A stretch of DNA of 64,000 nucleotides from Lingula anatina (Eukaryota > Animalia > Brachiopoda). Below, one piece after another: positions 1 through 42,964 of this stretch; position 1 is the stretch's first letter, and the number at the start of each line of letters is the position of its first letter. The stretch covers positions 9,052,001 to 9,116,000 of the forward strand of contig CM120640.1 of assembly GCA_051362555.1 (NCBI GenBank), in the 5' to 3' direction. Position numbers and translations under genes: made by a program. Under the pieces are notes generated by a model. That model was not told the origin of the DNA and ran no database searches. It saw nothing but the letters and a program-made list of their open reading frames with translations.

Positions 1-399
1 AACCCTAAAATCCGTGAGGGCCTCTGTTGGTCCAATTCTATTAAAAACAAATAATTTAATGACATGAAGAAGGCTAATTTTCTACGCTTAATAACTACTT
101 AGAAAACTATCAGTTTATAAAGATAACGAAGAACAACACTAAATGCCACAGTCTTCTGTTGATTAATAAGTGGTGGAAGTAAAAGGGTTTAAAATGGCAA
201 TTTAAAAATTCTTATTCAAGGAGGGCATACGTGCAAACTATTGGGGGGGGGGGGGGGGCAGGGCCAGATTATTTTTTTATGATAGTTAAGTAACAAATAC
301 GGAAATAGTTTCAGTGGTAAAATAAACGGGTTTAAACTAAAAACATTTACTTAGGATCACACTGAATGATGACATATTTTATTTGCCATATCAACTCAC

Positions 400-2908
400 G
401 TGTTATAGAGCTCTACATCAGGTATCCACACATCTTCACCACGAACTTCTAGTTCACTTAGTCCGCCAAAGTTTCTTGGAAACCACACTAACCTCTTATC
501 TTCCCAGGTCTAAAGGGAAAGCAGTGCATGGACATTAACATTTAATACTTGTTTCAACTTTTAATATTTATACAGATTGAAATAATAAAAACAGACCCAC
601 CAACATGTAAAAAGGGTCGATTAAAGTTCATACGATACTTTGAAACAAAAATGGTCAACCCAAACAAAAACGCCCATCAAGTGCGCGCCTATACGAGCAC
701 ACGGACACGAATCACACACTACGCCACCTGACAACTTTACTCAGGAAAAACTAGTTCTGCACAGTGAATTCGGTAAAGTTCCTTGGTTTAAATTCAACAA
801 CAGTCCAGTGTATTACTAAGGGAAAAGAGAAAACGCTTTCTCACTAATCTTACTAATCAATGCACTAAAAGCGAGCAGAAAAACCCACAAAGATCTCATC
901 AGGAGCAGTGGCGGATTCAAGGGGAAGAGACAGGGGGAATACGTCCCTCGTTTAACCAAGAACACAATGCAACAATTGGAACGACACAAAACCAAGTATT
1001 TCATCCAATCCTGTCCCGTACGTATTACGTTAAAATTCCTCGTCGACTCTTTTGTATATTTGTCACCGCCCCCTCTTTCCCTAACGCCAAAGCCTGGTTC
1101 CGCCAGTGAAGAGGTCCTTCTGAACTTCACACGATTAACCGTTATATCCAATATTGAGCTTGGATATCATGAACCTGACGGTGCCACTTCATCGATGTCA
1201 AGAATACACGCAGAAAACAAGAAAACAAGCAGTTCTGAAACCTATATAACTGAGCCAAAAAATGTATTTTAAAAGCAATTACTGCTAAACCGTGGGAATG
1301 GACGAAAATATACAATTTCGGTGTGTTTTGCTTGAACTGGGTGCTTATAGGGTCAGGGGGAAATATTCAAGAATGCAGATCCTGAGCTTATTTTTAACTG
1401 GCCTTTTTTCTGGTCGCCAAATAAGTGGTTCGTTCACAAGAAAGGGAGACAAAATTATGAATATGTTTAGACATTTTACTCTCTGTGAAATATCACACTT
1501 TTGCCTAATAAGAAGATGGAATCTGAATCAGGTAAGTTTTCATCGTTTTGCCCACTGCTTAAGAAAACCATTAATTCATCTCTCCGATATAAGCCAAATA
1601 TATGACATTGAATACACCCCATCCCCACGTCCAATACCTCTGATATGTCATGGAACATTAAGCCCGTTCCAGCTGTTGCATGTCTAATGCTTACCTCCAA
1701 GGTAAAGGTAATACATAGAGGTGAAGCGTCTGGTACTAGCAGGTTGGCAATGAGAAGAATTTCCCGGGGATGCAAGCTAACTAACTCATATTGTTAGCGT
1801 TATGGAAGAAGGCAGTGAGAGGGCTATTTGGGCTATTGGGCGGTATTATCATTTAACTTGCACAGAACAATTCAATGTTGATTTGACGCCCATACACACA
1901 ATACGTATAGGTTCTTATTCAGGGTGATCCATGAAGGTTTGTGTAAATGCAACACTAAATCTTACCATCTGCAGCCATGCAGCAAAGGAAATGGATTGAT
2001 CTTCCGGATCGAACTCTAGGATCTTCCTCAATATCAGATTGAAAGTCACTGGCACTGGCGACGATATATTCACTGCAGGGCGAACATTTTTGTCATAGTC
2101 TTTAAACAACCGCTCGTAAATGGTATTTTCACTGTGAAAAAGAGCAAACACCATATTTCAGAAAAATACCGATTTCCAACGGGTAACTGTTTTATCAAGA
2201 TATAAGAAAAACAATTAAGTGGTTCAAGAAGGCGAAAATATGATAAGATGACATCTATCAAGTTACCCTATGAAAAACAGAACACGAAGCGTACATATTT
2301 TGTATGGGTGCTGTACATAAAGGTTTACCACTTTGTTCGCTAATATGTGTATATTAATGAACATATAAAAATTAATTTCAGACACAAAACGACAATAAAT
2401 GTGTTATTAAAATTTGCCTCAATTGTTTTTCAAATTTAAACAAATAATGTAAAGCTACACGTTTGTTAGAGTGGAAGCATTTAAAGCAAACTGTTTATCT
2501 TCTAAAGCTTGTTACTCTCCGTAACATAGAATGTACGCCTTTCGATCTTCCTAGCTATTCAAAACTCTTTATTATTATCATTTAAAAAACGCCTATTTTT
2601 CAATAGTCAATGTAATTGTTTTCACTTGTTCACACCAAATCAGAAAACACCAAAGAAGTCACGATTGAATGTAAAATATGAACCCAGACACTGTTTCTAG
2701 TTACATTGGTGTAACACAAGAATGGCAAAATGTGTTACCAAATCGCATGAGAACCGTCGTGCATTAATTCAAATAAAACTTACTCTTGGGCTTGGGCTCC
2801 AATGGTAAGATAGGCAAGTATGCTACAGAAAAGCAAAGTGTTGCACAGCGCGTTGTTGCCTGCACGCCCCATCTCTCTCGGTGTTCCTGCAGAAGAACCA
2901 AGGTTCAT
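400..2908 (-). CDS. Gene A: nAChR/AChBP-family ligand-binding-domain protein, 3'-partial (continues beyond window start); exons 2908-2784, 2131-1966, 509-400
   Basis: Spliced translation: MNLGSSAGTPREMGRAGNNALCNTLLFCSILAYLTIGAQAQD|ENTIYERLFKDYDKNVRPAVNISSPVPVTFNLILRKILEFDPEDQSISFAAWLQM|TWEDKRLVWFPRNFGGLSELEVRGEDVWIPDVELYNT. It has a signal peptide, the L-F-x-x-Y-x-x-x-V-R-P motif, W-x-D-x-R-L-x-W and W-x-P-D-x-x-L-Y-N. Junctions are GT-AG with consistent phases (2,0,2). An alternative start lies at 2872. Confidence 0.9.
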
Positions 2909-5667
2909 GGCAAAAAGCTCCGCACAGCGTGACGTAGCGACGTATTAAGTTTCAGCTGCAGATCGTGATTACTTACTTAGATGTGTTGGTTATCTTTGAT
3001 CCCTATATTGACACGATTCCCGTGGCAGACTTTTTTTAATAAAGGTAACGGCATATAGTCAAAAGCCCTATGACCCCGACACCATCCTACTACATATGAA
3101 CGAAAACTTGACATATGCTAATATGCAGTCAATAATTTCAGCTGGTCTGAAACACTAACCGCCTCGTGTCCGGCTCCCCACGCTACAGCCTGTGTAAAAA
3201 AACTTTCTTAAATTGTACACCACAGGCAAGCAGGAAGTTGTCGAATATTATTTTATCAAGAATAAAATTGGATACTTATATCTCTAGAAAGGTAATTTCT
3301 TCCAACTAGGTTCCACTTGTTACTTTGATGGGTGCTAAGCGTGACGTTAGGTAAGAGACAAAATATATGTTTTGCAACAAACAGTGCCATGCAAAATTAA
3401 TAAATAAATAGATAAAAATCATTTTAGTTAAGTTATATTTACAGAAAATGCATTCTGCTCAACTGGCTCAAAGCATTGCTAAGAACACATGAGATAGACT
3501 GACTGCTTTTAAAAACTAATGTGGCAAAACTATTTCAAAATGCAGTTGCCAAGATAATTACAAAAAAATATTTACAAGAAACTCAACTGTAATAAGGCAT
3601 TGCAAATTACTAGTAGGCCAAATCGATTTAAAATCAAAAGACCACGAATAAAGAATTTCTTTTAAAACAATATTGTATTTCAGCAATTTCTCCATCATTT
3701 TGACCACGTAGCAATTTTTCAAAATGATTGAGAGGCTACTTGAACCTTTTGCCCTAAAGTGACCGCTGAACTATTTCTAAAACCTGTAAATGCCGTTTCA
3801 GTGTAGGGAAACCGTTGCTAACATATGTGAGTCATTACCATTCCAAACATAATACACAGAAACAGAAGTTCCAACTTTGAATTAGGTTTGAGTTATTTCA
3901 AGATTTTCACATCACCAACATTAAAATTGTCTTACAGAAATAAACTATATAACTAACATAGTTTTGATTAGAGTTTTATTTTTTCATCAAATGTACAAAG
4001 TCTCTAAGTGTAACAACATATATACCGTTCATTTTCTGTTCCGTGTAAGTTACACGTTCCAAAAGATGAGATGGCAAAGGTAAATACGTTTTATGCGATT
4101 TCTTTCAGGTGTGTAATTTCTTAGACTAACGATGTTTATTCTTAGGGAAGTATAATATTGTTCTTCAGCGTTTTCAGGGGTACCCCGCGGTTCAAGGGCA
4201 AGACCGAAAATCGGTTTGGTCCTTTAGGTCAATTTTTCCATGAGTCTATCCACATATAAATCAGAGTTGTAGTTTGAACATTTCATTGTCATCTTAGATT
4301 TTTACTTTATATAAAGGACTTCTGCGAATAATCTTGCTATCCAGTTATTATTGACAGTGGACCATAATAGTCCAAGAACAATCACAAAATTATGTAGACA
4401 AGTAATAACTCGAGGAAGGATTAAAATTTCCACAAATAAAACATCTACAGAACAGCTATGAAAACAAAACTTCTGAATCACATGTAGGCTCAGAAAAGGT
4501 CCAGCGACATGCTGTCCCTGCACACCGCTTCAGACCAACAACAACAATTTCTGCCAGTGGGTAACTTGTCAACTTGTCAGGTCAGATTACATTTATTTCG
4601 TGTCTGCAGAATTAGTGAAAATGAGAAACTGAATAAATTGCTGGAATTGCCCTTCCAAAAACGAGTCGAATCTTGAACCGAACATTCAACTTTTGAGAAT
4701 TGAGAACAGTATTTCTGAGTCTCGCCTGGCAGACAAATCTTCATTAACCACGGAATTGACTACCTCGACATCTGCTAAAAAACGATAACATAGATTTTTG
4801 CCTGGGAGTTTCATTCTAGCCCGGAAATAAGCTAAATATTTGGTATTAGGTTTAGTTCACAACTGTGAGCATAACATATCGAGTTCCTTTCCCCCCAGTT
4901 TCATTGATTTTAAATAAAGTATATCATACAAGAAGCAAGACAGATGTAGGCTAACAGCAAAGTCGGTTGCACTAAAAAGACCACAATCAGAGCAGCCCTA
5001 GGAAAAAAGTTTCTCTTGTTTGGCAACAGAAAGAAAGGTCTCACGGGCCAACAGACATTTCAGCGAATTTTTTCCGGCATTATGACTTTTTTGTGGCCTT
5101 TCTGCCTTTACCTAGATGCCAAATCTCTATAAATAACTTTCGGTAGGTTATAGCACCTTCTAGAAACGAAGATAAACAAGTAGATTTTGATGGTCTCTAC
5201 ATGTTGTGATTACACCGTAAAGATTTGAAGCAAAACTGATCTCGGTAGAGGTCAGCATCAAATTTACTCTCCTTTAAAGACTTCGTGTCTGGACATAGTA
5301 TTGAAGGGAGCAAAAAATGACAACTTGGGCAATAGTAAAAGCTACATTTTGTTTTTTGATAGGATAATAAATCCAACTTCGCTATTTGAATGTGATTGAA
5401 GCTACCTGACCCCGGAGGGGATTGTTCTAATAAAGGGTATTAGAATGCACAATCGATTCTGTTTTCTTCATAATATTTTTTTAATTTCCGCAAAAGTTAA
5501 AGAGGAAGCGTTATCGAATGTTTCTGATTTGCATATTGGGTTTATTTTTGTACCCCTGGGCACAACGTTTACAAGAGCTGTGCACCCACCGAGTAGGTTA
5601 AGTTTAAACTAGATGGCAGGGAAATCCCTATTTTTGCTACACGTGTGAAACAAAATCCTCTGTTAAT

Positions 5668-5670
<3 letters not shown>

Positions 5671-5711
<41 letters not shown>
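5671..5711. repeat. (GA)n microsatellite
   Basis: About 20 perfect GA units. Confidence 0.95.
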
Positions 5712-5713
<2 letters not shown>

Positions 5714-6335
5714 TTCCCGAGCCCCACAAGCCAATTTTCCCAGGGAAGTCTGAAGGCCCACTGTGTGCTCCTGAAATAGATACCACTTTGGACCAGGGTG
5801 CTTTATCTGTTTGCATAAATTTCTCTCCAACTAAAATCAAATTCTGTACATCGAGACATTAAACTCTTTCTGGTATGTTAATTAATCAATGCAACTAATG
5901 AAGAACTAATTAACTGACCTTTGCTGAAAAACCCAATTGCTGTTGCTGTTCCATTTGCAGCTGTGTGAACATCCCGCCGCAATCGCTTCATCTCAGCCAC
6001 CGCATCTTCCCAGCAAACCACTGGTCTTGTAACAGAGGCGTCCTTGACATCTTCTGGTATTTAAAACGTGCGTATAACACCTCTAAGGCACTTAAGTAAA
6101 ATATCAGCCTTTTAAACCGTTTTCAACACGTCTTGATGTAAAGACCACGCAAGGCAGACGTTCTTCAAACGTTCTCAAACATTTGTATCATATCTGGAAA
6201 ACTTGGTGTGACAACAACCGAGGCCAATTGAACTTTTGATTACCAACCGATCATAGATAAAATCTGCTCATGTTTCTGGGAAAATTGATCAGGTCTTTTT
6301 GTTCTGGACATCTTATTAAAAACGCAGTTGCAACT

Positions 6336-6376
<41 letters not shown>

Positions 6377-7022
6377 ATGGTAACCCGTCGACCTCAAAAT
6401 GTATTTTAATCTTTCACATGTTGTAGGTTTGGGAATAATGGGATACACATCGGGCCTATCTTGAACCCTAAGATAATGGAAAAGCGCCAGTTTAATACAC
6501 CACATTACAATAATACTGTTCCACCAATCAATAACACATTTCTCCAAAATATGACATTTTTTATTCCACCATATATATACTCAAAATTTGAAAACTCATT
6601 TCCTACTAGTAATCGTTTGCGGATCCAGGATTCTGATAGGGGGTAGGGGGTCACAAAGCAAATATACCATAATATGTAGGGCACGTGAATGGAAAATTGA
6701 TTGGTTTTGGAAGAGATGAATCATAGCTGAACAGATGGCTAGTAGCATCAACTTACAACATAAAAAAAACGTGAAGGGTTAGTATGACTGTTTAGGGGGT
6801 AACAAAATGAAGCCAATGAGAGATCGGACTTCAGCATAAAATACAGATCTAACATATTTCTCTTGTCTAATATTAATATCATATTAAAAAATTAATGCTA
6901 TCTCAACTGCCCTTGCATGGCGGCGATGCAAGTTATTGACGCATCTCCATTTTGGCACCACTTGAGATCGGTTTACATATAAGAAACAGGCACTTCGAAT
7001 GAATTCCTTAATATAATGGTTG

Positions 7023-10000
7023 CTATTGCTGAGAAGCTAAAGCTAGTGCTACTAGAATCCATAGCTGCCACGTGATGATGTGAGACGCTCCTAAGCTTAC
7101 GGGTCCAGCGTCTGAAATTGAGAGAAAATATTATGCATTATGACTGTTGTGTATATGTCCTATAGCTATCGATATCAAGTTCTTGAAATAGCAAGCGGTC
7201 GGTATACTTAGGAAGAAAAATATACAGAGAGAAAGGTCACAATGTATTTTGTAATAGGTCCAACTCGCAGCCCACTAAATAACGCTTTTAAAATAAGCAT
7301 GACACCCAAAAACCAATTTTTCGTATCTCATGCAAATGTTTATGTTCAGAATTTATAATTAATCAAAAACTTTCTCGTGTTTTTGTCTTGTATTGCAAAC
7401 AATATATTTCGTAAATTGCCTTTTGTATCTGCACAAAGTAAAGAAGACAATGTTTTGTTGTAACATATCAGTAATAAACACGGTAATGTATCCTTTTAAA
7501 ATAATTTTTCTATTATAAAATATTTCATTTCACACCCAAACCTAATACACAGGTGCATTTCACATGCTGAAAAATCCAAAGAGTAAAATTGAATGAATAC
7601 AGTTGTATTCAATTTTAAAGCATATGTGTGTATAGAATAAAAATCCACGACTGATAATTGTCTTTATTCCGGGTCATTTGATTAAAAATTTTATATCGCG
7701 TTCCGATATATGTTGTATAGTCATTCAGTTAAGGTAAGTTATAGTTATACATAACGTAAGGAAGTTTTATAAATATTTAAACTGTAACTCGAGGGGCTTT
7801 GCGTCATGTTTAATACTATGTAACGTATGTTCCCCAGAAAAATTGTCAGAAAGTTTCATCTTACCCAAGTACTTGGTGCAATAGGAAACGGGGATTTTTG
7901 TTGCTGACTGAAAATTTATATTGATTCCATGATAGTTTGGTATTTCTGATACAATATTTGGACCACGAATGGAAAATAGTTTATTTAATGCTTATTTTAC
8001 TGTCGGTAGGGTGTATTTTCATCGTTTTTTTAACATTCAGTGACAAGCAAACTCAAGTCGCTTAAAAACAATTAACAAAAACAACTGCTCTATACAGAAG
8101 ATTATCATAATTTTTACAATGTTATACTTGTAGGAGAACAAAACCAATGATGACTGAATTTTCAAAGTGAGTAAATCGTTCACAGCTGCATTTGAGACAG
8201 TAACGTATGTTCCTTTTGTGGGGCTAGACGATGAATTGTTTTTTATTATTCATGGTACCAGGAGAGTGAAACTCTGATACAAGTTGTGGGACCTTAAATA
8301 ATCAAGCACAGTTTGGAATCTATGCACTAAATATTTTAAAGAGCATGCCTATGACCTCATTTGCACCTCTATATTGGGTTTGGGTGTTCAGAGAAAAGCC
8401 TATCTTAACAAATGTCTTTAATTCGTATCTCGACTTACCTGCTGAACGATCCCTGCTTAGCTTGAGTGTGTAGGTTATGTCAGGGATAGTTTTATTAGCG
8501 TTACGCACCGTCGTGGCGTTCAGCAATTTCCACTCCATATCAGCGCTATATTCGGTCAGGTCGAGGTCGTCCCCTACCAAGTCCAGCTGGTCGCCGGGAT
8601 AAACCCAGGACGCGAACTTCAGCTTACACTCGTGAACCTCGTCATTAAGATCTGTGGCGCAGCTAGCTCTGAAATTTGCATCGTCATCATCATCATCATA
8701 ATAATAATAAAAATAGATAAATAGATATAAAAACAGATAAAGAATAAACAAAAAATCGAAAGAAATAATGATTTTAATTAAAATTAATAAATAAATAAGA
8801 GAAAAGGTGCCACGATATGCAGTGATAAGCTGCACTTAGACGAGACACTATAATAATAAACGATACAGCCGGGGAGCCACTGGCCCATATGACCGTTATT
8901 TTCCCGGGGCCGTAGCGATAGTCCGAAGGTTCAATAGTCCGAAGGTTCATTGGTCCGAAGGTTCACTATAGAACCTTCGGACCAATGAACCCTTGATTAA
9001 AAAATCGATGAAAATGTTACCACTTTTCGGACCAATGAACCTTCGGACCAATGAACCTTCGGACTATCGAGACGCCCCCATTTTCCCAATTATTAGATAG
9101 TAGCCTCGTTTTTAAATAGGCCCGCTTCGCCTTGAGAAAATATGGCGGGAATCAGAGGCATAGAATAGGGTAAGATTAAAAGGTGATTATAGAATGACTG
9201 TAGAGGTGTATTTAAAAAGACTTGGCAGAACGATATATTATATGCTTAAGTTATATTGTATACACCAAAAGAATGTTGACATATGTATTTTACAGAGTTT
9301 TCACTGATTTTAGATGCCAGCACCAAAATGGCGTCAGACAAAACTCCGACGTAAACACGCTTTTTTGAATAGAGACAAATGCAGCTGAACAAGTATTTTC
9401 TTTTTCTGTTCACATTTTTAGATAGCTAAATTATCATTTTTGCACATATGAAAATTTTGGAATCCGGAGAAACCTCTGTCTTATAGATTTTGAGCATTTC
9501 CAACAAGGTGTATATTGAGCGTAAAGATCATTGGGTCAATGGTAGCTAGCAGCTTCGTTGGTTTCGTCATTATTGAATGAATGTCATTGTAAGATATTTA
9601 TGCCGTTTTTGTTAGACATGGGCTTAAAAAAGCAGAAAAAGGTGATTTTGAGTTGGCAGTGTGCAGATACTTGCTGTCACACGCTGACTGACGCGCGAGC
9701 GCACACGCGCGTCGCCATCTCATTCTTTCTCTGCCATACACAAGTACGCATATACTTGCACAAACATATGATTTTTAAGTTTGTGAACTATGAAAGAACA
9801 ATCAATAAATGTTTCAATACTGATTGAATTTGAGTCTAGATTACCCTCAGTAATACTATTCAACTATAATTGCTACCTGTTTTGCTATTACAAAGGTTGT
9901 TTATATATTTTAATATATTATTATATATAATATATATAATAAATATATTTAAACATCTATTTTAGTTTATGTGAGTGTGTGTGATAAGAAAACCACTAGA

Positions 10001-13000
10001 AAACAACTTTTTTATGTACCTTTTAAATACTAGTAAATGGGATAAATGGATTTATTCACATTTCTATATGTATATTTCATTAGGCTTGAACAACATGTCT
10101 GGGGCCAGGATGAATCCTTTTGCCATACCTTGATCTGCAATCCTCATGAGTCATGACAGATAGAAGTTGTCCCAGACACCCATCATTTCTGATGCTGTGT
10201 GACATAGAGCACCACCTCAACTTATGGCATACTTTAAAGGGATTACATATTTTTCTTGACTGTAGCTGTTGCTAATATTATCTGTATACTAGTAGATAAT
10301 CAGTAAAATCAAGAATATGCATTCATGGTGTAATGTACATGTAGTTTGTCATTGGCAATTGGACAAAACTTAACTTAGAAATAAAACAATTGAGTAAAAT
10401 CAAATGCAAAGATGGATTGGAATATGACTTGGTAGCAAAAAAAAAAGCTAACCTTGTGAAAATTAATAAAATTATATCATATGTTAAAATTTAAGAATTG
10501 CCCTTTCAAAAGGAATCTGTCTGTTCATTGGCTTAACAATTATGAATTGCAATGTAAATTTGCACTGATTCATTATGAGTAGTGAAAATTATAATCATTA
10601 CAATGCATGTAGTAAATTTAAAAACAATAAAAATTGATATTTTCTGTGATTGTATTGCAGATGATATACAAGTAGCTTGAATGTTAAAATAATAAAAGCA
10701 AAAATAATTAATGAAATATAATACTGGTTCTTCATTTGTTGTTAAATTTTATGTATTGATGAAAAAATTGATATGGTGCATGCAAGTTGGTAATATAGTA
10801 TTCTCTAATACAAAAAAAACTAATAGCATTGAAAAAAGAACAACCAGTAAAATCTGAGTGATAGTCGGGCCATTCCAGCATATTCTGTTTTTTTTTTTTG
10901 TTTTTTTTTTTTGTTTTTTTGCCTCTTCTTCCCAGCACCAGACTATAATATATTCGATAATCAAATCTGCACATTTTCAATACGTACGTGTTTGTGTGTG
11001 CAATAAAGGAAAAGGCCAAAACGAGACTGGGTTACTAAAGAATATAAGAACTCGAAACGAGGCTGATGTACGGATATTGCGAGAGCAATTTTTTGACGGC
11101 ACTCGAGTGTGGTTTGAATCGAGACACTTTCAGCTGAACAAATGCCCCTTGACATGCTTACTATAGCAAAAAGCTGAATAAATTCCTCACATTTTTTCGT
11201 AAATTCTAAAATCCAGAGAGACCTCTATAAGTACAAACATCGGCGTTAAAGTTGGACTTGCGTAATTGCTTTCACAAATTTTTAATTTCAAACTCACTTT
11301 TTTACACAAAAGCGACTTTGGATCAACTCAAGGCGCATCTCAGCTTATTTGAAATTTATTTTTAAAAATGTGAATATAAATAATGATGCATTTGGTATCT
11401 TAATAGCTGAGATATTTCACCCTTTTTGATACCCTCTAAATACTCGAAATTTTGGTCAATTCAAAATAAACTTCCGGTTTCTCTAAAGTCCCCCTAGCGG
11501 CAGCTCAGTGGCTCCCGGGCTGATAATCTGTCTGGATCGGTCTTAACCGGCTTAATTGTCTGTCACGCCTACCGAATCTGCTAGGGTAAAGATAATTACC
11601 ACCCTTAACAGCTTTACTTAGCTTGACGGAAATTTTAGTAAGACTCCCCAGGGAGATAGGTCGATCCAAATATCTGTGGGAATGGTCCCTGAGACTCGAG
11701 TTTGGAAACGCCAAATCCGTTTATAAGGTCTGTATAAAAATCCCGCATACTCTTCTGACACTGGCTTGCAACAGTGGTCACTCGGATCAGTAACTAAGTT
11801 ATCGATCGTCCCAGCAGTAGGGTAGTAAGCACTGATATGGTACTCTTTACCGGACGACCTTCTAGCTGTTCTAACAGTTACAAAATCTGTTTTCTAACAG
11901 CTGGAGGGGCCTCTGTTAAAGTGTACTGATACCGAAAGAAAAAAATCACTTACGTGTATTTCTTAGACGGAACATATATAACCTCGCCATTGTTGGCCAG
12001 TCGAACATTTGTATTGGTCGTGATATCTTCCGTAGGTGCAGCTCTGAGGTTTAAAAGAAATAAAGAAAACAAATTTGGGACGTCATTTTAAGTATAAAGA
12101 TGAAATATGTGTATCATTACATCACGATAATCTTGACAGGTGGGGAAAAGACATCAAACAACGCCGCCATGCTGTTACAGAGTATACTCATCAGCGGCAA
12201 ACACTAGGAAACATCTACAGCAACGGAATGTTCTCTTGATTAAATGGCGAAAAGCTAACATACGTCTTGCTTATGGAGAAACGGTGCCAAGTTAAGTATC
12301 ACTCACGCGTTCATCAGCTGAATATCCGGCACCCATATTTGAGAGGCCGCCACGGCAATCCTGCTTACGTCATTGAAAGAGGCTGGAGTCCATTGAAGAT
12401 TGTCAGCTTTCCACATCTGAAATGAAAAAAGATACTTCGGCTCAATTAGCAATTTGATAAATTAGATTTTAGCTAGAGGTATGTGAGTATCCTGACTGAG
12501 ATGACATAATGAATTGTGTTGATGCTAAAATTGCACTGTTCAATTCTTGATATAACCAAGCAGTTGATACAAAGCCTTGACATAACTAGTTTTTTTTTTT
12601 TTTTTTTTTTTTGCATCAATTAGTAAAATGGCGGATTTTATAAACCACACCTGAAATGAGGCCTGCGATAGCTGAAAATGACCCAAATTGTACCATATTT
12701 TCATTTTTCGCATGGTGAGAAGTGGAGAAATTCTCTTTATGTACATGCAATTAGTGTTTGCAGTTTATAGAGTTCTCCAATATATTATGAACACATCAAT
12801 TTATACAAAAAAAGGGAAAAAATCAACTACCATTGTTTGCCATGCTACAAAGGAAATGTACTGTCTTTTCACGTCGAAATCCAGGATCTTTATCAGTTTT
12901 AAACTCAGTGTAACTTGAAGTGGAGCCTCCGGGTTTTCCGATGGGATGACACCCTTAGAATAACCTCGGGACAGGAACAGCGAGACTTTGAGTCTTGCCT

Positions 13001-13554
13001 CACTGAAACATAGAACAATGGAGCTATGAAATATAGTAGGTCCTATACTTTATTCCCCATGGTGGTCAACGGTTCGTGTGGTTTTTCCATCGACTTCTCA
13101 GCATTAAATGCCAACAGAAAGAGCAAAACAATAATACGTTGATTTATAGGTGGTGACCAGCCTTGGAATTTTTTCTTAAGCCGTGCATTACGATACATAT
13201 ATATTTAGTAGATCTAAAAACATTGCGAGAAAGCAATATATCTGATACTACTTGTGTGTATATAACTGATTACTGACTGATATTACCCAATGATAGCACA
13301 CTAGCTCGAAAAGGTTATTGCACATCATCTCCCGAGATCGATTAGATTAAGGCGTACGGTATCGTCTACTTTCTGGACAAAATATGCTCTTGTTTCATCA
13401 AAACCTTGCTGTTTAAGAATGTTCAAAAAGTGTTGCAGCTCCTGTGTGAAAGAATAAATACTCACTCTGCTCCTTGAGCAAGGACGAGCGCCCATACTGT
13501 CATGCAATGGATAAAGAGCAGATTTAGCAGCATAGTGGTTCCCCAGGTCGCCAT
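7023..13554 (-). CDS. Gene C: AChBP-like protein (259 aa) lacking loop C cysteines, with a putative C-terminal GPI-anchor signal; exons 13554-13466, 13002-12831, 12416-12307, 12043-11954, 8668-8439, 7111-7023
   Basis: MATWGTTMLLNLLFIHCMTVWALVLAQGAD|EARLKVSLFLSRGYSKGVIPSENPEAPLQVTLSLKLIKILDFDVKRQYISFVAWQTM|MWKADNLQWTPASFNDVSRIAVAASQIWVPDIQLMNA|AAPTEDITTNTNVRLANNGEVIYVPSKKYT|ASCATDLNDEVHECKLKFASWVYPGDQLDLVGDDLDLTEYSADMEWKLLNATTVRNANKTIPDITYTLKLSRDRSA|DAGPVSLGASHIITWQLWILVALALASQQ*. All introns are GT-AG and the exons sum to 780 bp in frame. Exons 1-5 are high confidence; the last exon is inferred from its acceptor (tttctctcaatttcag) and phase match. Confidence 0.85.
8906..9079. mobile_element. 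Small foldback/MITE-like element with 15-bp subterminal repeats in inverted orientation and an 8-bp TSD
   Basis: The left arm GGGGCCGTAGCGATAGTCCGAAGGTTCA... mirrors the right arm ...TGAACCTTCGGACTATCGAGACGCCCCC. The unit (T/A)GGTCCGAAGGTTCA occurs about 3 times per arm. The direct repeat ATTTTCCC flanks it at 8898-8905 and 9080-9087. Confidence 0.8.
9180..11610 (+). mobile_element. Probable degraded DNA-transposon remnant (Kolobok-like transposase fragment); boundaries uncertain
   Basis: 10150-10242 reads VMTDRSCPRHPSFLMLCDIEHHLNLWHTLKG, resembling the TDRH...H-x-F-D-x-W-H-x-x-K-G motif of Kolobok-type transposases, with stops upstream. CpG-rich flanks surround a CpG-free core. No convincing TIR pair was found. 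Confidence 0.3.
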
Positions 13555-14165
13555 CTTGCGAGATCAATTCTACGCTAATGAGAAAGGGGCGGTATACGCA
13601 TGGCATGCAATTTATGGGTTGAGTTCGGAATATATATATATTGGTTGTGGAATTTGGAAACACATTTGGAAAGGATGCTAAGCTACAAGTTGAATATCAG
13701 GACATTCTTTTCAATGCAGTGAGGTTTTGTAATATGCGTTAAACTAGGTTTATTTACACTGGCCGAGTATTTGTGAAATGCGCCGTTTCCGTTCTTTCTT
13801 TCTTTTTTTTTTTTTTTTTTAGACATTGATTTACACTCTTCCAGCTGTTTTTTATTATAAACAGAAGATAATAAGGTTTTGCTGTTGCCTCTTGTAGAAG
13901 CTGTTTAGGCATCTTAGAAGGTCTATATCATGCTTACACCTATATTCAAAATAAACAATACCTTTACCCTTCACTTGCTTGTTAGGGTAGACTATTTTAT
14001 ATATTGGGCAGAAAAGATGTTATTTTTATCAACTTAGAAACTTTGGTCTCGACTACGCAAGCTGTAAAATGTTCTCTGTACTTTGCCAACACAACTCGAA
14101 ATGAAAATGAGAATGAGACCAATCAGCGCTCATTATCGTTTCTCTTCTCTCTTTCTCTCTCTCTC

Positions 14166-14203
14166 TATGTATGTATGTATGTATGTATGTATGTATGTAT
14201 GTA
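14166..14203. repeat. (TATG)n microsatellite
   Basis: About 9 TATG units following a CT-rich tract. Confidence 0.9.
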
Positions 14204-14922
14204 TAATAAGAAAATGGACCTTAGGTTTACATTTAACATGACATACACCGTGTTTTTGCATGGTCAAATAAAATGTACTACGTGTTTGGTCTCTGCAAAC
14301 TGCTGATGCAATTTGGTTAGTCTAGTTGTTATTTAACCAAACATTATTAAATAAGTTCATTTTATCAGGGAAAATACAGACCTCGACCAACAATTTCAGA
14401 GGGTTTAGCAGGCCTTGGTTGAGCATTACATTTGCAATATTCCTTTTATTAAATCAGTCCCTCTACAGCGTCAAACTATTACTCTCGATATATGAAGTAT
14501 AATGAAAAAAAATCATATAAACTGTCGCTTATTGACCTAACGTTGATAACTGAATGCACTACGCAGAACTTTTTATTGCGTAAGATGTACGACGATTATC
14601 ATTACTAGGCTTTCCTTTATATTCCAACTGCTAGGGTATAAACCTTGTCGTCAACCATTTTACCCACGCGTCTATTATCGTCAAGTAATGACTTTCATAA
14701 AAAACCACTGCAGTATTTAATGTATTTCTAGAAGAGATTTATAGCAGTGTTGAATACACGCCTATAAACGAGCGAGACCCACCTTTCAATACAAAGCTTT
14801 GCTAACCACATTAGAGCAGTGATTTTCATTATGTTACTGTCAATATTTTCCTCGAGTATTTAAGAAATAGACTCTTTAGTTTTTTCAGTCAAGTAATCTT
14901 TTTGGCTGTGGCAAAAAAGTTA

Positions 14923-17249
14923 TTATTTTTCGTCTTTGACACGAAGATTGAGAGTATACTGGACATCGACATAAGGTTCCGGGCAACAGGCATAGTACTT
15001 TACTACCCGCGTTGCGTTGGCGCTGATCAGGTCCAGGAAGTGACTTTCCACGTAGTCAGTAGTGTCCACGTAAGGGAAGGTTTGGTTTTTGTCCATGTCG
15101 TCCAGCACAAGGTCAAGCTCATCGCCACTGTATATCCAGGACCCGAATTTTAGATTGCATTGGTGGACAGTGGAGGAAGATGCAGCATCACAAATAGCAC
15201 TTAAATTGGAAGAAGAAATGTTTGGCTTAATATCTGCCCGAGCTTATCAAACTAATAAAATAGCCATAGACTTGAAGTGTAAAACACAATAAAGCACCAA
15301 TTATTATGACTGTACATTATCATGAGAAACTAACTTCATGAAATTCTGTCAAAATGAATTTTGAGATTTATACTGTAGGGCCTATACATATATTAGTAGA
15401 ATCAATCTATACTACAAAATGTTCCATTAAATTCCACTTGCTACAGTTCTGAACTACTATTCTCAATACCTGTATATTTTGCTGGACTTGTAAACCACGT
15501 GTCCATCATGTGAAACCGTGGCAAGAGCATTCACTACATCTCTTGTTGGAGCCATTCTAAAAAAGAAATCGGGGATCACAGATTCGATGGCAGATTTATT
15601 TTGCAAGTAAAAATAAAAAACAAAATAAACAGAACTTGCCATGATTCAAACGTCAGAAGATAGAAAATGTGATTTTCAAGCTATGAATTCCGAGGCACGG
15701 AATAAAAAACCTAGCTATTTGGAAGTTTTTGTGGGCCATGAAAAGAGAGGATATAAAAAGTGATAGCATCATGTCAGATGAAGTATAAGCTGATATACAT
15801 CTTCATTTGTCTGAATTATTGTTAACATTTCAAATAAAAGAATGCTCGCGAAACAATAATAAATGAAAATAAAAAGAGATGTGCTTTCGTGCTACTACAG
15901 TATGACATAAATTGTACTATAACTGTCTTTCACAAAGCCTACAAATGTCAAACACATCTTAAAATATAATCTTTTACCATTCAAAGGGCAAAACGAATCC
16001 TCCAAGATACCTCCTGTCGTTCTTTATACTCCTATAAACTTACAGAGAAAATCATTGGGAGGAAAATGAATTACTGTAGCAAGCACTCTGTGCAAGATCT
16101 ATGTGTCTCACATAGATCAGGGAATTATATCGGATATAATTCCCTGCATAGATGCAGCATCAAACACTCACGCGTTGTACAGTACGATGTCTGGTAACCA
16201 TAACTTGTCTGCGTTCACATAAATTGTATCGGCATTTTTGTAAGATGGTGGATACCACTGTAATCTGTAGTCAATCCAGGTCTGAATAAATAAATAAATT
16301 GATTAATAAATAAATGCAGTCAATAAGAATAACAGCAGCATTTTGAATTCCATGCACTGTATAATCTAAGGACATAGGCGACTGCATACTTGTGAGCCTC
16401 ATGAAATAATGAAGAAAAACTTTAGCCCGAAGACTCATCAAACTTTGGTGTGAGCTATATGAGCCCTATCTGTTTGAAAAGCCAGCAATACACTAGATTC
16501 AACTGGTTCTATATATAAATTTATTGATTGCTTGGATTGGTCTTGGGAAATAATTAAAAGGATTGCTTTAGTTTAAAAGAAACATACCAATTTTAACACC
16601 GCGTTTATTTTAAGTGCCCCCTTCTTAGGATCAAAATCGATGCTGCGGAGACCCAGACTCAGTGTAACCTCAGCCGGCTCTGTTGCAGTCTTTGAGGGAC
16701 GGACATCCTTGAAGTAGTCTTGAAGTAAATCTGCATAAAGGGAAGTTATACTGAAAAGAAAGGAAAAATTATAAAACCTGTATATGCCCGTGAAAGTGTG
16801 ATTTTCCGAGCAGTAAACGAGTCAAACAAATAAAATAGTTACTGTCATATGAGAAATCTTAGGTGGTGGAAGAGAAAGATGCCGTTACAAGTCTGCTGTT
16901 GGAAAAGAGATTTCATTCCTAGCCTGTCAAAAAATGAAGAAATTATCAAAAAGGCAATTGGCATTTCCCTAACACATTACACGTACTCGGTACCTCATAG
17001 TAACGTTCAAGTATTTGAACTTCGCATTGTATATACACTGCAGTATGTAGCTTGGTTTGTGAATAAGTGAAGGATTTTGAAGCCAACTCCAGACTTGCAT
17101 TGCACGGACATTGCGTTCCATGCGTTTATATCGAGCCACATAAAACAAACTACTAGTGAACTATAGAGTAAAACTACTTACTCTCCACCTTGCACTACTA
17201 CTGCCGCAACTGCACTCCAGGAGACGAAACACCACAGCCATGCCGCCAT
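14923..17249 (-). CDS. AChBP: Gene B: secreted acetylcholine-binding protein (AChBP)-like, 234 aa; exons 17249-17182, 16750-16588, 16281-16172, 15556-15470, 15199-14923
   Basis: MAAWLWCFVSWSAVAAVVVQGGD|ITSLYADLLQDYFKDVRPSKTATEPAEVTLSLGLRSIDFDPKKGALKINAVLKL|TWIDYRLQWYPPSYKNADTIYVNADKLWLPDIVLYNA|MAPTRDVVNALATVSHDGHVVYKSSKIYS|AICDAASSSTVHQCNLKFGSWIYSGDELDLVLDDMDKNQTFPYVDTTDYVESHFLDLISANATRVVKYYACCPEPYVDVQYTLNLRVKDEK*. It has a signal peptide, loops A (YN), B (SW) and C (YxCCPEPY), and a stop right after beta10 with no M1-M4. Exons sum to 705 bp in frame. The symbol is family-level only. Confidence 0.93.
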
Positions 17250-19044
17250 TTTGAAGCAATATCCATATACTGTATTCAGGGATCAGATGGTTGTTTATTT
17301 TACAGTTTGACTAACGAAATTATTAATCAAATTAAAACAAAAGACAGACGAATTTTCAGTTCTTGCAGTGGACGTTATTTTAATTAACACTGCATACTTA
17401 TTAATTACCTATTCATAACGCAATATGAATTTGCCATTTTGATACGGCCCCTACTGGAAACGAAAACACCTGTTTATTTTTCGTCTGCAGACCTACTAAC
17501 CGGCTATTAACAACACCCCGATCCGACGCTACCTCTGAAACCGCCTTGCGCTCATTAGATCTTGAACCTTTAGGGAGTTAAGAATAATGATATGATATTT
17601 TGAAAGCAGACTGAAACTGTTTTTGCCAGCTCTTTAGACACGCCTTTTATTAGCATTATAAGCTCAATCTTAATTGGCGACATGGTAGGAAGCCTAAACC
17701 ATACATTTTGCTTCGACTGGTTTTCTTGGTGTGTTCAGTGAATATATATAGATAGATAGATAAAATTAAAACTGGCAGATTCGGCTTTGTATTAAAGAGG
17801 GGAAGAACTCATGTGTAGGCGTGAGCATAACACGGAAATTAAAATAAATGGTGTTATAACAACTAAACGACGTTTGCTCTTCAGAATATCCTAAATATCC
17901 CATGCAAAATGTTTTGTACTGCTGTACGCTACCTGCTAGAGAATACGATAAAGGAACTCCACAGTAAAGTTAACAATGGGTTTATTCTACAACATGAACT
18001 AAGGTTCAGTTCAGTTCAATCCCACTCGGACTTGCAGGCTATTAACTGTACTTGTTGAACGAAAAGCGCTTTCTCTGAGAAATCTAAAAGTGCATCCATC
18101 CATGAACCCAATACTACCAGTATTTTCGTTAAACCAAAACGATACAACTTGGCTTACTTTCTTTCCTTGAGAACTACCTTTCAAGAGAACTCCTGTTGAC
18201 AGATCCCAAGGCAGCAACACGTTTTTCGCACTCAGTAATTGAAGTTTCGGCCTTTTTTTTTATACAGACACCTTTATTTGTATCCTCGACCCGAGTCAAT
18301 CATCAACTATAGACAGGTAAAAAGAGGAAAAAGAGGGAAAACCTTAACAACTGACACGACCTAGGATAGAAGTGATGCCGTCTACTTGTTTTTATATCCA
18401 GAATACCGGATATAAGGCCTATAATTGTGTTTTGCAGGGCTTTAACCAAGGCATGAGCCGAAAGCTCTCGCACATTGTTATTTTTGTGCCTTCTGATACC
18501 ACAGGGATCTCTAGAAAAGTTTACAAAATTGAAGAATGCTAGCTAGCGGACCCCGTGTTCAGGAAGTATTATTTCTGTTTAACGGAAAATAGTCATAAGG
18601 AAAGCTTGGGGTTATTACATGAGCATAAAACACCAGACCTACCAATATCTTTTATTGTATGATTGGTCACTCAGTGTTTGAATAAAAGCTTTACATTCGT
18701 AGGTTGTGCTAGAGAAGCACATTCTGATGTTCACGAAGGATAATTGGTAATGGTGGATGTGGTAGCTGTGACAAGGATCACCTAACACATTAGCGCAGGC
18801 GGCTGCAACCTACTCGGTATCAATTTATTGTCTGAAAGATATGAAATAAGGAGTAGCACACAATGCTTTAGTTTACCTAGTATCCCCAAGCATTTGGATC
18901 GAGTATCATGCATCTCACTGAAGACGAAGAGTCGCGTATACAATGAAAAACATGAAATATTCAAGTCTAATGGCTATTATTTGTGTGTATTTGGGATTCA
19001 GTTTCACTACACTGGGTCCAAATTAAGGTTTCAATCATCATCTA

Positions 19045-35765: not shown

Positions 35766-38700
35766 ATTGTACCACCAGCGTTAGCGCTGGCGGTACACAT
35801 GGTTTCGGTCCCGTCCGGATCGTTCCGCCGGCTCCGCCGGCTCCGTTGGCTCCGCCGGCTCCGCCGGCTCCGCCGGACGGCTACCGTTACCGCTTCTCCT
35901 CCTAGACGGTAAGGGCCCCCGTACCCATCTCATGGATTTAGGTCACCTATAATCTCAACTCGTTCCACGTAAAATTTGGGCTTTGTCGGTATTGGGGTCT
36001 GGGTGTGGCACTCATTGCAATGCACCCTTGTCTAAAAATGGCAAAATTAAATGCTAATTATCTACCCTACGGAAGGAGTTATGGGAATAATTTCTATAGA
36101 CGGCTTTCCAAAAGTCATATGTGTAGATTTCAAATATACCCTTGGATTTGACCTTTGACCTTTACTTCAAGGTCAAATGGGCCAAAATTTTCAAAAAAAT
36201 TAAATTTTTTACGAAAAAAATTTTTTTTGCCCTGTTATTCAGACACCACACAGACTTAACCAATAATATTATTGGAAGGTGTTACCCTTCAGGTCATCTT
36301 TCATCTCCATGAATTTGGGGTCAATCGGTGCATTTTCACGGGAGTAGCGGCCATAAGATACCGAAACTGAAAACTGTCTCTAATTCGGGAACCGTTAATG
36401 CTAGAGACCCATTCTTTTTTGCATTTTGTAGAGCATGTAAAGCCCAACACTGGAGGTGGTCTCGGTTTTTTTGTATTCCATACGGTTTTCGAGTTACGCT
36501 GTATCAAAAAGTACATATTGGTGGTAAAAGCAAAATGTGCAGTACAGTAATGGATAATAAATTTTGAACTCTGGAAAAATAAAACATAAGGCTTGGCAAA
36601 GCAGACAACTTGTGTTCAAAAATGACATTATTTCATCAAATTTGAACTTCTGAAACTTCAGAGCACCTCCTATTTCAAGAATTTTGACCAAAATGACATT
36701 TTCTTTATTTTAATTAATTTTTTCTGTACGAAATTTAAGGCACATTATGGTAACTCCAAAATTATAACATTTAGTCCCTTATATCTCCAAAACTGGCAGA
36801 GATAGGTCCATAGTTACTATTGAAGTTGAATAGGAAGTCATATACTGGCAATCTTACTATGACCTTGAAAGTGACCTTTGACCTACTTTTCACCATGAAC
36901 TGAACTTTGCAAATTTTTCTTCCCTTTTATCTCCAAAACTGGCAGAGATAGGTCCATAGTTACTATTGAACTTGAATAGGAAGTCATATACTGGCAATCT
37001 AAATGTGACCTTAAAATTGACCTTTGACCTACTTTTCACCATAAACTGAACTTTGCAAAATTTGCTTCCCTTTTATCTCCAAAACTGGCAGAGATAGGTC
37101 CATAGTTACTATTGAACTTGAATAGGAAGTCATATACTGGCAATCTAAATGTGACCTCAAAATTGACCTTTGACCTACTTTTCACCATAAACTGAACTTT
37201 GCAAATTTTGCTTCCCTTTTATCTCCAAAACTGGCAGAGATAGGTCCATAGTTACTATTGAACTTGAATAGGAAGTCATATACTGGCAATCTAAATGTGA
37301 CCTTGAAATTGACCTTTGACCTACTTTTCACCATGAACTAAATTTTGCAAATTTTGCTTCCCTTTTATCTCCAAAACTGGCAGAGATAGGTCCATAGTTA
37401 CTATTGAACTTGAATAGGAAGTCATATACTGGCAATCTAAATGTGACCTTGAAATTGACCTTTGACCTACTTTTCACCATGAACTGAACTTTGCAAATTT
37501 TGCTTTCCTTTTATCTCCAAAACTGGCAGAGATAGGTCCATAGTTACTATTGAACTTGAATAGGAAGTCATATACTGGCAATCTAAATGTGACCTTAAAA
37601 TTGACCTTTGACCTACTTTTCACCATAAACTGAACTTTGCAAAATTTGCTTCCCTTTTATCTCCAAAACTGGGAGAGATAGGTCCATAGTTACTATTGAA
37701 CTTGAATAGGAAGTCATATACTGGCAATCTAAATGTGACCTCAAAATTGACCTTTGACCTACTTTTCACCATAAACTGAACTTTGCAAATTTTGCTTCCC
37801 TTTTATCTCCAAAACTGGCAGAGATAGGTCCATAGTTACTATTGAACTTGAATAGGAAGTCATATACTGGCAATCTAAATGTGACCTTGAAATTGACCTT
37901 TGACCTACATTTCACCATGAACTAAATTTTGCAAATTTTGCTTCCCTTTTATCTCCAAAACTGGCTGAGATAGGTCCATAGTTACTATTGAACTTGAATA
38001 GGAAGTCATATACTGGCAATCTAAATGTGACCTTGAAATTGACCTTTGACCTACTTTTCACCATGAACTGAACTTTGCAAATTTTGCTTTCCTTTTATCT
38101 CCAAAACTGGCAGAGATAGGTCCATAGTTACTATTGAACTTGAAAAGGAAGTCATATACTGGCAATCTAAATGTGACCTTAAAATTGACCTTTGACCTAC
38201 TTTACACCATAAACTGAATTTTGCAAATTTTGCTTTCCTTTTATCTCCAAAACTGGCTGAGATAGGTCCGTAGTTACTATTGAACTTGAATAGGAAGTCA
38301 TATACTGGCATTATAAATGTGACATTAAAATTGACCTTTGTCCTACTTTTCACCATAAACTGAACTTTGCAAATTTTGCTTCCCTTTTATCTCCAAAACT
38401 GGCAGAGATAGGTCCATAGTTACTATTGAACTTGAATAGAAAGTCATATACTGGCAATCTAAATGTGACCTTGAAATTGACCTTTGACCTACTTTTTATC
38501 ATGAACTGAACTCTGCTAATTTCTTTCTCTTTTAACTTCAAACTTGACAGAGATAGGTCCATAGTTACTCTTGAATTTGAATAGGAAGTCATATACTGGC
38601 AATTTACTGTGACCTTGAAATTGACCCTTGACCTACCTTACGAAGAACTTAAATTTGATTGTACCATATATATTTTTTGCAATAGTTTAAAAATTCTTGT

Positions 38701-38842
38701 TGATTGCATTTTTACAGCTTGTCAAGCACAAAACTGGTGGCTATGTCCCTTATTTTGTGTATGTGGGGGTCTATACGAATGCGCTTGCTCCAGCTGGTGG
38801 TACAATATTCGGAGGCGGTATCGCCTCTCTGATCCTCTAGTT
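35766..38842 (+). mobile_element. Non-autonomous Helentron/Helitron2-type element (HINE-like), copy 1
   Basis: Perfect 14-bp subterminal IR ATTGTACCACCAGC (35766-35779) / GCTGGTGGTACAAT (38793-38806). Also a 5' hairpin GTACCACCAGCG-TTAG-CGCTGGCGGTAC, a 9-bp GCTCCGCCG microsatellite, an internal satellite array, a 3' hairpin GAGGCG-GTAT-CGCCTC (38812-38827) and a CTAGTT end. No TSD. Near-identical to copy 2. Confidence 0.88.
36776..38640. repeat. 146-bp tandem satellite array (12 full units plus a diverged partial) inside HINE copy 1
   Basis: TCTCCAAAACTGG recurs at 36784, 36930, 37076 ... 38390 with an exact 146-bp period; the diverged last unit begins near 38536. Confidence 0.95.
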
Positions 38843-42900: not shown

Positions 42901-42964
42901 ATGCGCTTGCTCCAGCTGGTGGTACAATATTCGGAGGCGGTATCGCCTCTCTGATCCTCTAGTT
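39906..42964 (+). mobile_element. Non-autonomous Helentron/Helitron2-type element (HINE-like), copy 2
   Basis: Same architecture as copy 1: subTIR at 39906-39919 / 42915-42928, the 3' hairpin and a CTAGTT end. Flanks differ from those of copy 1. Confidence 0.88.
40898..42760. repeat. 146-bp tandem satellite array (12 full units plus a partial) inside HINE copy 2
   Basis: Unit starts at 40906, 41052 ... 42658 with a 146-bp period. Confidence 0.95.

What the first reader, a model, noticed from the sequence alone, without database searches (positions are those of the whole stretch)
400..17249. Candidate channel-less, membrane-tethered heteromeric acetylcholine-binding system: tandem AChBP-like genes with complementary binding faces
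Seen: three co-oriented LBD genes. Gene B has the whole principal face (loop A YN, loop B SW, loop C YYACCPEPY), but Val replaces the loop D Trp (NAVLKLTW vs receptor NVWLxQxW). Gene C shows the reverse: loop D Trp kept (VAWQTMMW), loop A Tyr->Met, loop C deleted, and a GPI-like tail. Known: nAChR agonist sites form between an alpha (+) face and a neighbouring (-) face, and the classical Lymnaea/Aplysia AChBPs are soluble homopentamers. Inference: B and C (possibly A) co-assemble like alpha/non-alpha subunits into a pentamer without a pore, held on the cell surface by C as a local ACh buffer, toxin decoy or co-receptor. I do not know of such a described arrangement but could not search.
Basis: partly seen in the sequence, partly recalled or inferred. 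Interest (0 to 1): 0.88.

Follow-up and report, generated by a model that had tools for sequence, protein, structure and literature searches.

The report
Anchored, channel-less acetylcholine-binding protein trio
A brachiopod has three neighbouring genes for the acetylcholine-receptor binding domain with no channel; two carry tails predicted to take a lipid anchor and two keep opposite halves of the binding pocket, so they likely build a surface-tethered, possibly mixed five-subunit acetylcholine sponge, which is untested.

Summary
The window matches Lingula anatina. Three tandem minus-strand genes (B, C, A) encode signal peptide plus nicotinic ligand-binding domain, no channel, and a short 10-residue Cys-loop like AChBPs. 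They form one clade (support 0.98). B keeps all six principal-face residues but has Val/Leu at loop D and no anchor. C keeps the loop D Trp, has lost loop A Tyr and the loop C cysteines, and ends in a GPI-type tail. B and C are both expressed in 2 of 4 RNA runs (about 1:1 in the deeper one) and both absent in the other 2. So tethering does not need C, and B could pair with A. Loop D Trp loss is also weak evidence for an obligate partner: 4 of 20 other channel-less relatives lack it. Co-assembly is not shown. Verdict: a new variant of AChBP. GPI-type tails are well supported by sequence and were not found in print; a mixed alpha/non-alpha-like pentamer is plausible but unproven.

The parts
17182..17249 (-). 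Gene B exon 1 (ATG, signal peptide)
   Evidence: joint to exon 2 in 22 and 8 reads
16588..16750 (-). Gene B exon 2; loop D codon at 16599-16597 is Val in the window, Leu in RNA reads and RefSeq
16172..16281 (-). Gene B exon 3 (loop A Tyr112)
15470..15556 (-). Gene B exon 4 (loop E, with Lys137 at the Met114-equivalent position)
14923..15199 (-). Gene B exon 5: 10-residue Cys-loop, loop B Trp164, full loop C, stop; no anchor
   Evidence: reads run through the stop with no onward joint
14450..14922 (-). Gene B 3' UTR, ending near a poly(A) signal at about 14450
   Evidence: depth 6-23 in run X4 falls to under 1 below 14448; signals
13962..13990 (-). Gene C non-coding first exon (upper end not fixed), about 460 nt from B's last poly(A) signal
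   Evidence: loose end of 4 reads at 13576; GT/AG context
13466..13574 (-). Gene C first coding exon (ATG at 13554, signal peptide)
12831..13002 (-). Gene C coding exon 2 (loop D Trp84)
12307..12416 (-). Gene C coding exon 3 (loop A Tyr replaced by Met122)
11954..12043 (-). Gene C coding exon 4 (loop E Arg138, Ile146, Val148)
8439..8668 (-). Gene C coding exon 5: 10-residue Cys-loop, loop B Trp175, shortened loop C without cysteines and with an N-glycan sequon at Asn212
   Evidence: 9 reads from exon 4 continue into it
7023..7111 (-). Gene C last exon: GPI-type signal (small-residue site, spacer, hydrophobic tail, stop)
   Evidence: present in both RefSeq models; not covered by the RNA lay
2784..2872 (-). 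Gene A exon 1 (signal peptide; RefSeq starts at an ATG at 2908)
1966..2131 (-). Gene A exon 2 (loop D Trp kept)
400..509 (-). Gene A exon 3 (loop A Tyr kept)
1..37 (-). Gene A exon 4, cut by the window edge; the rest, with full loop C and the GPI-type or soluble ends, is known only from RefSeq proteins

Best explanation
This is a tandem trio of channel-less acetylcholine-receptor binding domains in Lingula, in which C is predicted to be a GPI-anchored, non-alpha-like subunit that likely co-assembles with the principal-face subunits B and/or A into a surface-tethered pentamer that would bind acetylcholine or a similar cation without signalling. Shown: gene structures, no transmembrane domain, residue patterns, B's lack of an anchor exon in RNA, and co-presence of B and C transcripts. 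Inferred: (1) all three enter the ER by signal peptides; (2) the tails of C and of A isoform X1 are replaced by GPI right after strand beta10, where helix M1 starts in a receptor, so the ring would sit on the membrane in receptor orientation; (3) sites form at B(+)/C(-), from B Tyr112, Trp164, Tyr212, Cys214-Cys215, Tyr219 and C Trp84, Arg138, Ile146, Val148, or at A(+)/C(-) and B(+)/A(-); (4) faces offered by C's short, probably glycosylated loop C are silent; (5) B, having no anchor, is held at the surface only through C or A; (6) A can also work alone, tethered (X1) or secreted (X2). The role would be local buffering of acetylcholine or decoying of receptor-targeted compounds.
For: No channel: B ends after beta10 and RNA reads run through its stop. 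The Cys-loop has 10 residues without the FPFD-type motif in A, B and C, against 13 residues with the motif in 122 of 132 channel-type relatives. GPI-type geometry in C and A-X1: small-residue site 21-32 residues from the end, hydrophobic 11-mer of 2.5-2.6, 0-2 residues after it. C folds as an intact LBD (mean pLDDT 92.8; TM 0.86-0.89 to AChBP and receptor ectodomain chains by target length) yet keeps only 1 of 6 principal residues, so it cannot make a canonical site alone. B keeps 6 of 6 principal residues at only 34-40% identity to its paralogs, but has Leu/Val at loop D and Lys at the loop E Met114-equivalent position, where Lys occurs in 10 of 163 relatives. B and C are both present in 2 of 4 runs and both absent in 2 of 4. 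Junction reads in X4 are B 30, 17, 22 and C 27, 17, 21. The pattern holds in the second RefSeq copies of B and C.
Against: A has a complete site (Tyr188 equivalent is Phe) and its own GPI-type isoform, so the trio can deliver tethered binding without mixing. Loop D Trp is missing in 4 of 20 other channel-less LBDs and 11 of 112 alpha-type channel subunits, and is kept in 7 of 12 non-alpha ones. Its loss can be nearly neutral (PMC4845029). The two Biomphalaria AChBP paralogs each form pentamers alone (PMC3423370). Co-presence in 4 bulk runs of unknown tissue is weak (1 in 6 by chance given the margins), and neighbours about 460 nt apart may share regulation. No orthologs outside Lingula were found, so conservation of the split could not be tested. 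B's variation looks unconstrained (19 nonsynonymous to 6 synonymous among the rows shown).
Confidence: 0.45

Rival explanations
1. Three independent homopentamers: A is the real acetylcholine binder (tethered or secreted), B is a secreted low-affinity binder or decoy with an altered complementary face, and C is a GPI-type surface protein with a different ligand or an adhesive role.
For: A is complete on its own. Described AChBP paralogs homo-assemble (PMC3423370). Loop D Trp loss occurs in other channel-less LBDs, including a snail protein with Arg there. B's pN/pS of about 1 fits a decoy under diversifying selection or relaxed constraint.
Against: It treats as coincidence that two paralogs lost opposite faces and are co-present at about 1:1, and it gives C no known ligand.
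Confidence: 0.35
2. Non-cholinergic use, like the pearl-oyster amorphous calcium carbonate-binding protein (ACCBP) or the snail haemolymph AChBPs: mineral or small-molecule carrier at the mantle surface.
For: AChBP-family proteins bind amorphous CaCO3 (PMC3423370). A Lingula homolog of ACCBP is expressed in mantle and lophophore at 11 FPKM (PMC4595640 supplement); it could not be mapped to these genes.
Against: In the 2026 Lingula shell-proteome supplement the only Lingula row with PF02931 is a different protein, a 54.8 kDa GABA-receptor-like one with 1 peptide. B and A keep the aromatic box and vicinal cysteines.
Confidence: 0.1
3. C and B are not partners of each other but enter true nicotinic channels as pore-less subunits that dampen or retune them.
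For: C's model superposes on alpha7, alpha9 and muscle receptor ectodomains about as well as on AChBP. A GPI anchor at the M1 position would place it beside receptor ectodomains (inference).
Against: The short Cys-loop without the coupling motif is typical of channel-independent AChBPs (PMC4569296). No Lingula channel partner was tested.
Confidence: 0.07
4. Truncated or decaying receptor duplicates without function.
For: B's nonsynonymous-rich variation; C's lost site.
Against: Intact frames in the window and in both RefSeq copies, correct splicing and expression, conserved fold, and no transmembrane exons in the window by tblastn with four full-length receptors.
Confidence: 0.03

Closest known systems
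Molluscan and annelid acetylcholine-binding proteins (Lymnaea, Aplysia, Bulinus, Biomphalaria, Capitella AChBP)
   Same: Signal peptide plus nicotinic LBD, no channel, altered Cys-loop. B and A keep the aromatic box and vicinal cysteines. B's best solved-structure hits are AChBPs and AChBP chimeras (E 6.5e-36 to 1e-28).
   Different: Described AChBPs are soluble and assemble from one subunit type (passages of PMC3423370 and PMC4569296). Here two of three paralogs have GPI-type tails and one has no principal face.
Heteromeric nicotinic receptors (alpha plus non-alpha subunits)
   Same: The site would form between a cysteine-bearing principal subunit and a complementary subunit supplying loop D Trp (PMC4845029). 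C resembles a non-alpha subunit. That muscle alpha1 lacks the loop D Trp, as B does, is recalled and was not tested here.
   Different: No transmembrane domain and no coupling motif. A, B and C form their own clade, so any alpha/non-alpha split would have arisen independently.
'LBD' and 'LBD-TM' gene classes of lophotrochozoans (Jiao et al. 2019, PMC6896357)
   Same: LBD-only genes (4-34 per genome) and LBD plus one hydrophobic segment (2-11 per genome) are tabulated for 10 molluscs and annelids; tandem arrays are common.
   Different: Lingula is not mentioned (0 occurrences). The passages seen give no GPI or split-face interpretation.
Pinctada ACCBP and Biomphalaria haemolymph AChBP (mineral binding)
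   Same: Channel-less LBD in a shelled lophotrochozoan.
   Different: None of A, B or C appears among the PF02931 rows of the Lingula shell-proteome supplement.

Membership tests
AChBP (channel-less Cys-loop LBD) | Neur_chan_LBD fold with signal peptide | tested here: met
   Pfam E 9e-42 for a B copy; model of C and Foldseek; hydrophobic N-termini read from sequence
AChBP (channel-less Cys-loop LBD) | No transmembrane channel domain | tested here: met
   B stop read through into UTR; RefSeq A, B, C are 234-271 aa; no TM exons in the window
AChBP (channel-less Cys-loop LBD) | Cys-loop lacking the receptor coupling motif | tested here: met
   10 residues, no FPFD-type motif, in A, B and C; 13 with motif in 122 of 132 channel-type relatives
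AChBP (channel-less Cys-loop LBD) | Complete aromatic box and vicinal cysteines in one subunit: gene A | tested here: met
   W, Y, W, F, CC, Y
AChBP (channel-less Cys-loop LBD) | Complete aromatic box in one subunit: genes B and C | tested here: not met
   B lacks the loop D aromatic; C keeps 1 of 6 principal residues. They are AChBP-like, not classical members.
AChBP (channel-less Cys-loop LBD) | Soluble, secreted | tested here: inconclusive
   B and A-X2 have no anchor; C and A-X1 have GPI-type tails; no localisation data
AChBP (channel-less Cys-loop LBD) | Pentamer that binds acetylcholine or nicotinoids | not testable with these tools
   needs protein work
GPI-anchored protein | N-terminal signal, small-residue omega site, spacer, terminal hydrophobic stretch, no cytoplasmic tail | tested here: met
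   rule-based check on C (both copies) and A-X1; no trained predictor was available
GPI-anchored protein | Release by PI-PLC or mapped omega site | not testable with these tools
   experiment needed
Nicotinic receptor subunit (the RefSeq names) | Four transmembrane helices M1-M4 | tested here: not met
Obligate heteropentamer | Subunits made in the same cell and co-assembling | tested here: inconclusive
   co-presence in bulk runs only

The most novel reading that the evidence does not exclude
Lingula has re-evolved the alpha/non-alpha division of labour in a receptor family with no channel: soluble B (principal face) and GPI-anchored C (complementary face) form an obligate mixed pentamer on the cell surface. 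GPI-tethered AChBPs would be an unrecognised, recurring class hidden among the 'LBD-TM' genes of lophotrochozoans; at least one unnamed protein outside the Lingula clade, P0148, has such a tail.
Probability: 0.28. Interest if true: 0.75.

Novelty: new variant of a known kind. Interest (0 to 1): 0.52.

Why it matters
AChBPs are the standard soluble models of nicotinic receptors, and their natural role is still unclear (PMC4569296). A GPI-tethered form would put an acetylcholine sink or decoy at a fixed place on a cell surface. That is a different way to shape cholinergic signals than secretion or hydrolysis. A natural channel-less heteropentamer would be a soluble model for alpha/non-alpha assembly and an independent case of complementary loss after duplication of a homomer. 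The GPI-type tails are the better supported part and can be tested quickly. The mixed pentamer is the more surprising part and is unproven.

Tried and rejected
Complex prediction of a B+C dimer: score 0.03 against a mark of 0.34, alignments not used, controls not folded; no verdict either way. No whole genome is held, so synteny and the rest of gene A could not be read. No indexed RNA holder was listed; 4 of the 9 raw-read runs offered were laid, on 11900-17330 only, so expression of A, splicing of C's GPI exon and the orphan exon remain untested in RNA. Lys at the Gln57-equivalent position of B was considered as a sign of a dead face or a carboxylate ligand and dropped, because Lys or Arg occurs there in 68 of 163 relatives. 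An anchor exon for B between its stop and C was sought; the one candidate was not hydrophobic enough and no such joint was seen. An alternative soluble tail for C through 6053-5919 and 4771-4686 keeps frame but has no support: no Pfam match above cut-off, no PDB hit, weak second acceptor. Ortholog searches found nothing closer than 37% outside Lingula. The second RefSeq copies of B and C (92-93%) were considered as a retained duplicate pair. They may be divergent alleles: two diagnostic changes are in 12 of 28 reads in X4 and 0 of 9 in X7, so they are not counted as independent. Look-ups of earlier scan findings returned nothing. The supplements of PMC13121700 had no hits for the three terms.
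Full report
Source and gene models. The window is 36% GC eukaryotic DNA with no whole genome held. Six-frame reading gave three co-oriented minus-strand genes with the same intron phases: B (17249-14923, 234 aa), C (13554-7023, 259 aa) and A (from 2872, off the left edge). Searches with single exons returned Lingula anatina RefSeq proteins. B differs from XP_013380747.1 at 1 residue and C from XP_013380739.1 at 2; A matches XP_013380740.1 and XP_013380741.1 over the exons present. RefSeq names them receptor subunits, but none has a channel. Second copies of B and C at 92-93% lie on another scaffold. No second copy of A was returned.

No channel. B stops just after the last strand. In run X4 reads continue through the stop into a 3' UTR ending near 14450, with no joint leaving exon 5. 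tblastn of the window with four full-length receptors found only LBD exons at E under 0.4. The Cys-loop has 10 residues and no FPFD-type motif in all three genes, while 122 of 132 channel-type relatives have 13 with the motif. Variable Cys-loops are described for AChBPs (PMC4569296, passages). These genes are therefore AChBP-like by design, not truncated models.

Binding faces (anchored on a vertebrate alpha7-like hit; alignments). B keeps 6 of 6 principal residues. At loop D it has Val in the window and Leu in both RefSeq copies and in 25 of 25 and 6 of 6 reads. It also has Lys at the loop E Met114-equivalent position (10 of 163 relatives). C keeps Trp84 and a conventional loop E but only 1 of 6 principal residues. 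Its AlphaFold model (95-row alignment, mean pLDDT 92.8) shows an intact sandwich with a six-residue turn between beta9 and beta10, a flexible linker and a terminal helix; an N-glycan sequon sits in that turn.

Anchors. C ends in small residues, a spacer and a hydrophobic stretch with 2 residues after the best 11-mer; candidate omega sites lie 21-32 residues from the end. A isoform X1 has the same kind of tail and isoform X2 has none. This was a rule-based check, not a trained predictor. C's last exon was outside the laid stretch, so its use rests on both RefSeq models and canonical splice sites. One unnamed relative outside the clade (P0148) has a similar tail; a second (P0092) may be intron read-through.

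Evolution. In a FastTree of 162 LBDs (225 columns; rows under 170 residues and five redundant or partial rows dropped), A, B and C group with support 0.98. Their inner order is unresolved (0.44). Mutual identity is 34-40% and the best outside match is 37% or less. The comparison set is the best 150 of 10,181 representatives plus earlier hits, so it is a biased sample. Within it, the loop D Trp is missing in 4 of 20 channel-less LBDs with vicinal cysteines (one of the 20 looks like an engineered chimera, and one has a single helix with a tail), missing in 11 of 112 alpha-type channel subunits, and kept in 7 of 12 non-alpha ones. B's loss and C's retention are thus each unremarkable. C's loss of the principal face is the strong signal.

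Expression (4 of 9 offered runs, 6-25% of each read, tissue unknown). In X4 both genes are expressed on the expected strand, with junction reads of 30, 17 and 22 for B and 27, 17 and 21 for C. In X7 both are low (B 3, 3, 8; C 2, 3). X1 and X3 show no spliced reads and next to no exon depth; divergence of those animals from the window cannot be excluded. Six of 7 introns appear as joints. Depth between B's 3' end and C's first exon is about 1 or less, so the transcripts are separate. The match is 1 in 6 by chance given the margins, and close neighbours often share regulation. Among the 40 variant rows shown of 106, 34 fall in coding sequence: B 19 nonsynonymous to 6 synonymous (pN/pS about 1.0-1.2) and C 5 to 4 (about 0.4), each scored alone against the window codon. 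None of those shown hits a principal-face residue, which is not significant by itself.

Mechanism. C cannot form a canonical site by itself yet is intact and expressed. The simplest use for such a subunit is the one non-alpha subunits have in receptors: supplying the complementary face to a neighbour. B is the natural partner by position, level and its weakened complementary face, but A could serve on either side. With GPI added where M1 would begin, the ring would stand on the membrane like a receptor ectodomain and bind ligand without signalling. I put mixed assembly involving C at 0.45 and the strict B-plus-C obligate form at about 0.28. Against it, Trp-to-Ala at loop D costs about 2000-fold at the alpha-gamma site, 13-fold at the adult site, and nothing at alpha-delta (PMC4845029, passages). 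The two Biomphalaria paralogs each form pentamers alone, with only a speculative mixed dodecahedron (PMC3423370, passages).

What is in print. Ten full-text searches were run. The listings showed no paper on Lingula AChBPs, GPI-anchored AChBPs or natural mixed AChBP pentamers; most subscription journals are not covered. PMC6896357 (passages and Table 1) tabulates LBD-only and LBD-TM genes in ten molluscs and annelids and does not mention Lingula. PMC4595640 (supplement rows) lists one Lingula ACCBP homolog that I could not map. PMC13425148 (text and supplement search) lists no A, B or C among PF02931 rows. PMC13121700 (supplement search) had no hits. PMC10338036 and PMC6504684 (passages) gave background only. 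Expression tables not held as text could bear on co-expression.

Verdict. Real, and more than an ordinary AChBP: a Lingula clade of three channel-less LBDs with predicted GPI anchors on two and a split of binding faces between two. It is a new variant of a known kind. The heteropentamer remains a testable inference.

Noticed in passing
window 5919-6053 and 4686-4771, minus strand: An orphan open exon of 135 nt (GC 0.50, usable splice sites) and a possible terminal exon lie between C and A, in the phase that would give C an alternative non-anchored tail. No Pfam or PDB match; not covered by RNA.
   Followed up: partly
window 14923-17249 (gene B): Coding variation among reads is nonsynonymous-rich (19 to 6, pN/pS about 1), with a cluster in the N-terminal helix; this could be diversifying selection, as for a decoy, or relaxed constraint.
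   Followed up: partly
protein P0148: An unnamed 255-aa LBD-only protein outside the Lingula clade has a GPI-type tail, suggesting that tethered AChBP-like proteins recur.
   Followed up: partly
proteins P0016, P0019, P0020: Unnamed metagenome proteins with a full-site LBD, one transmembrane helix and a short cytoplasmic tail: another way to anchor a channel-less LBD.
   Followed up: no
window 35766-38842 and 39906-42964: A 3.1 kb direct duplication at 96% identity, each copy holding an array of units about 146 nt apart.
   Followed up: no
window 16115-16146: A short repeat in B's third intron attracts reads from other transcripts in runs X1, X3 and X7.
   Followed up: no
window 13962-14450: Only about 460 nt separate B's last poly(A) signal from the known part of C's first exon.
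   Followed up: partly
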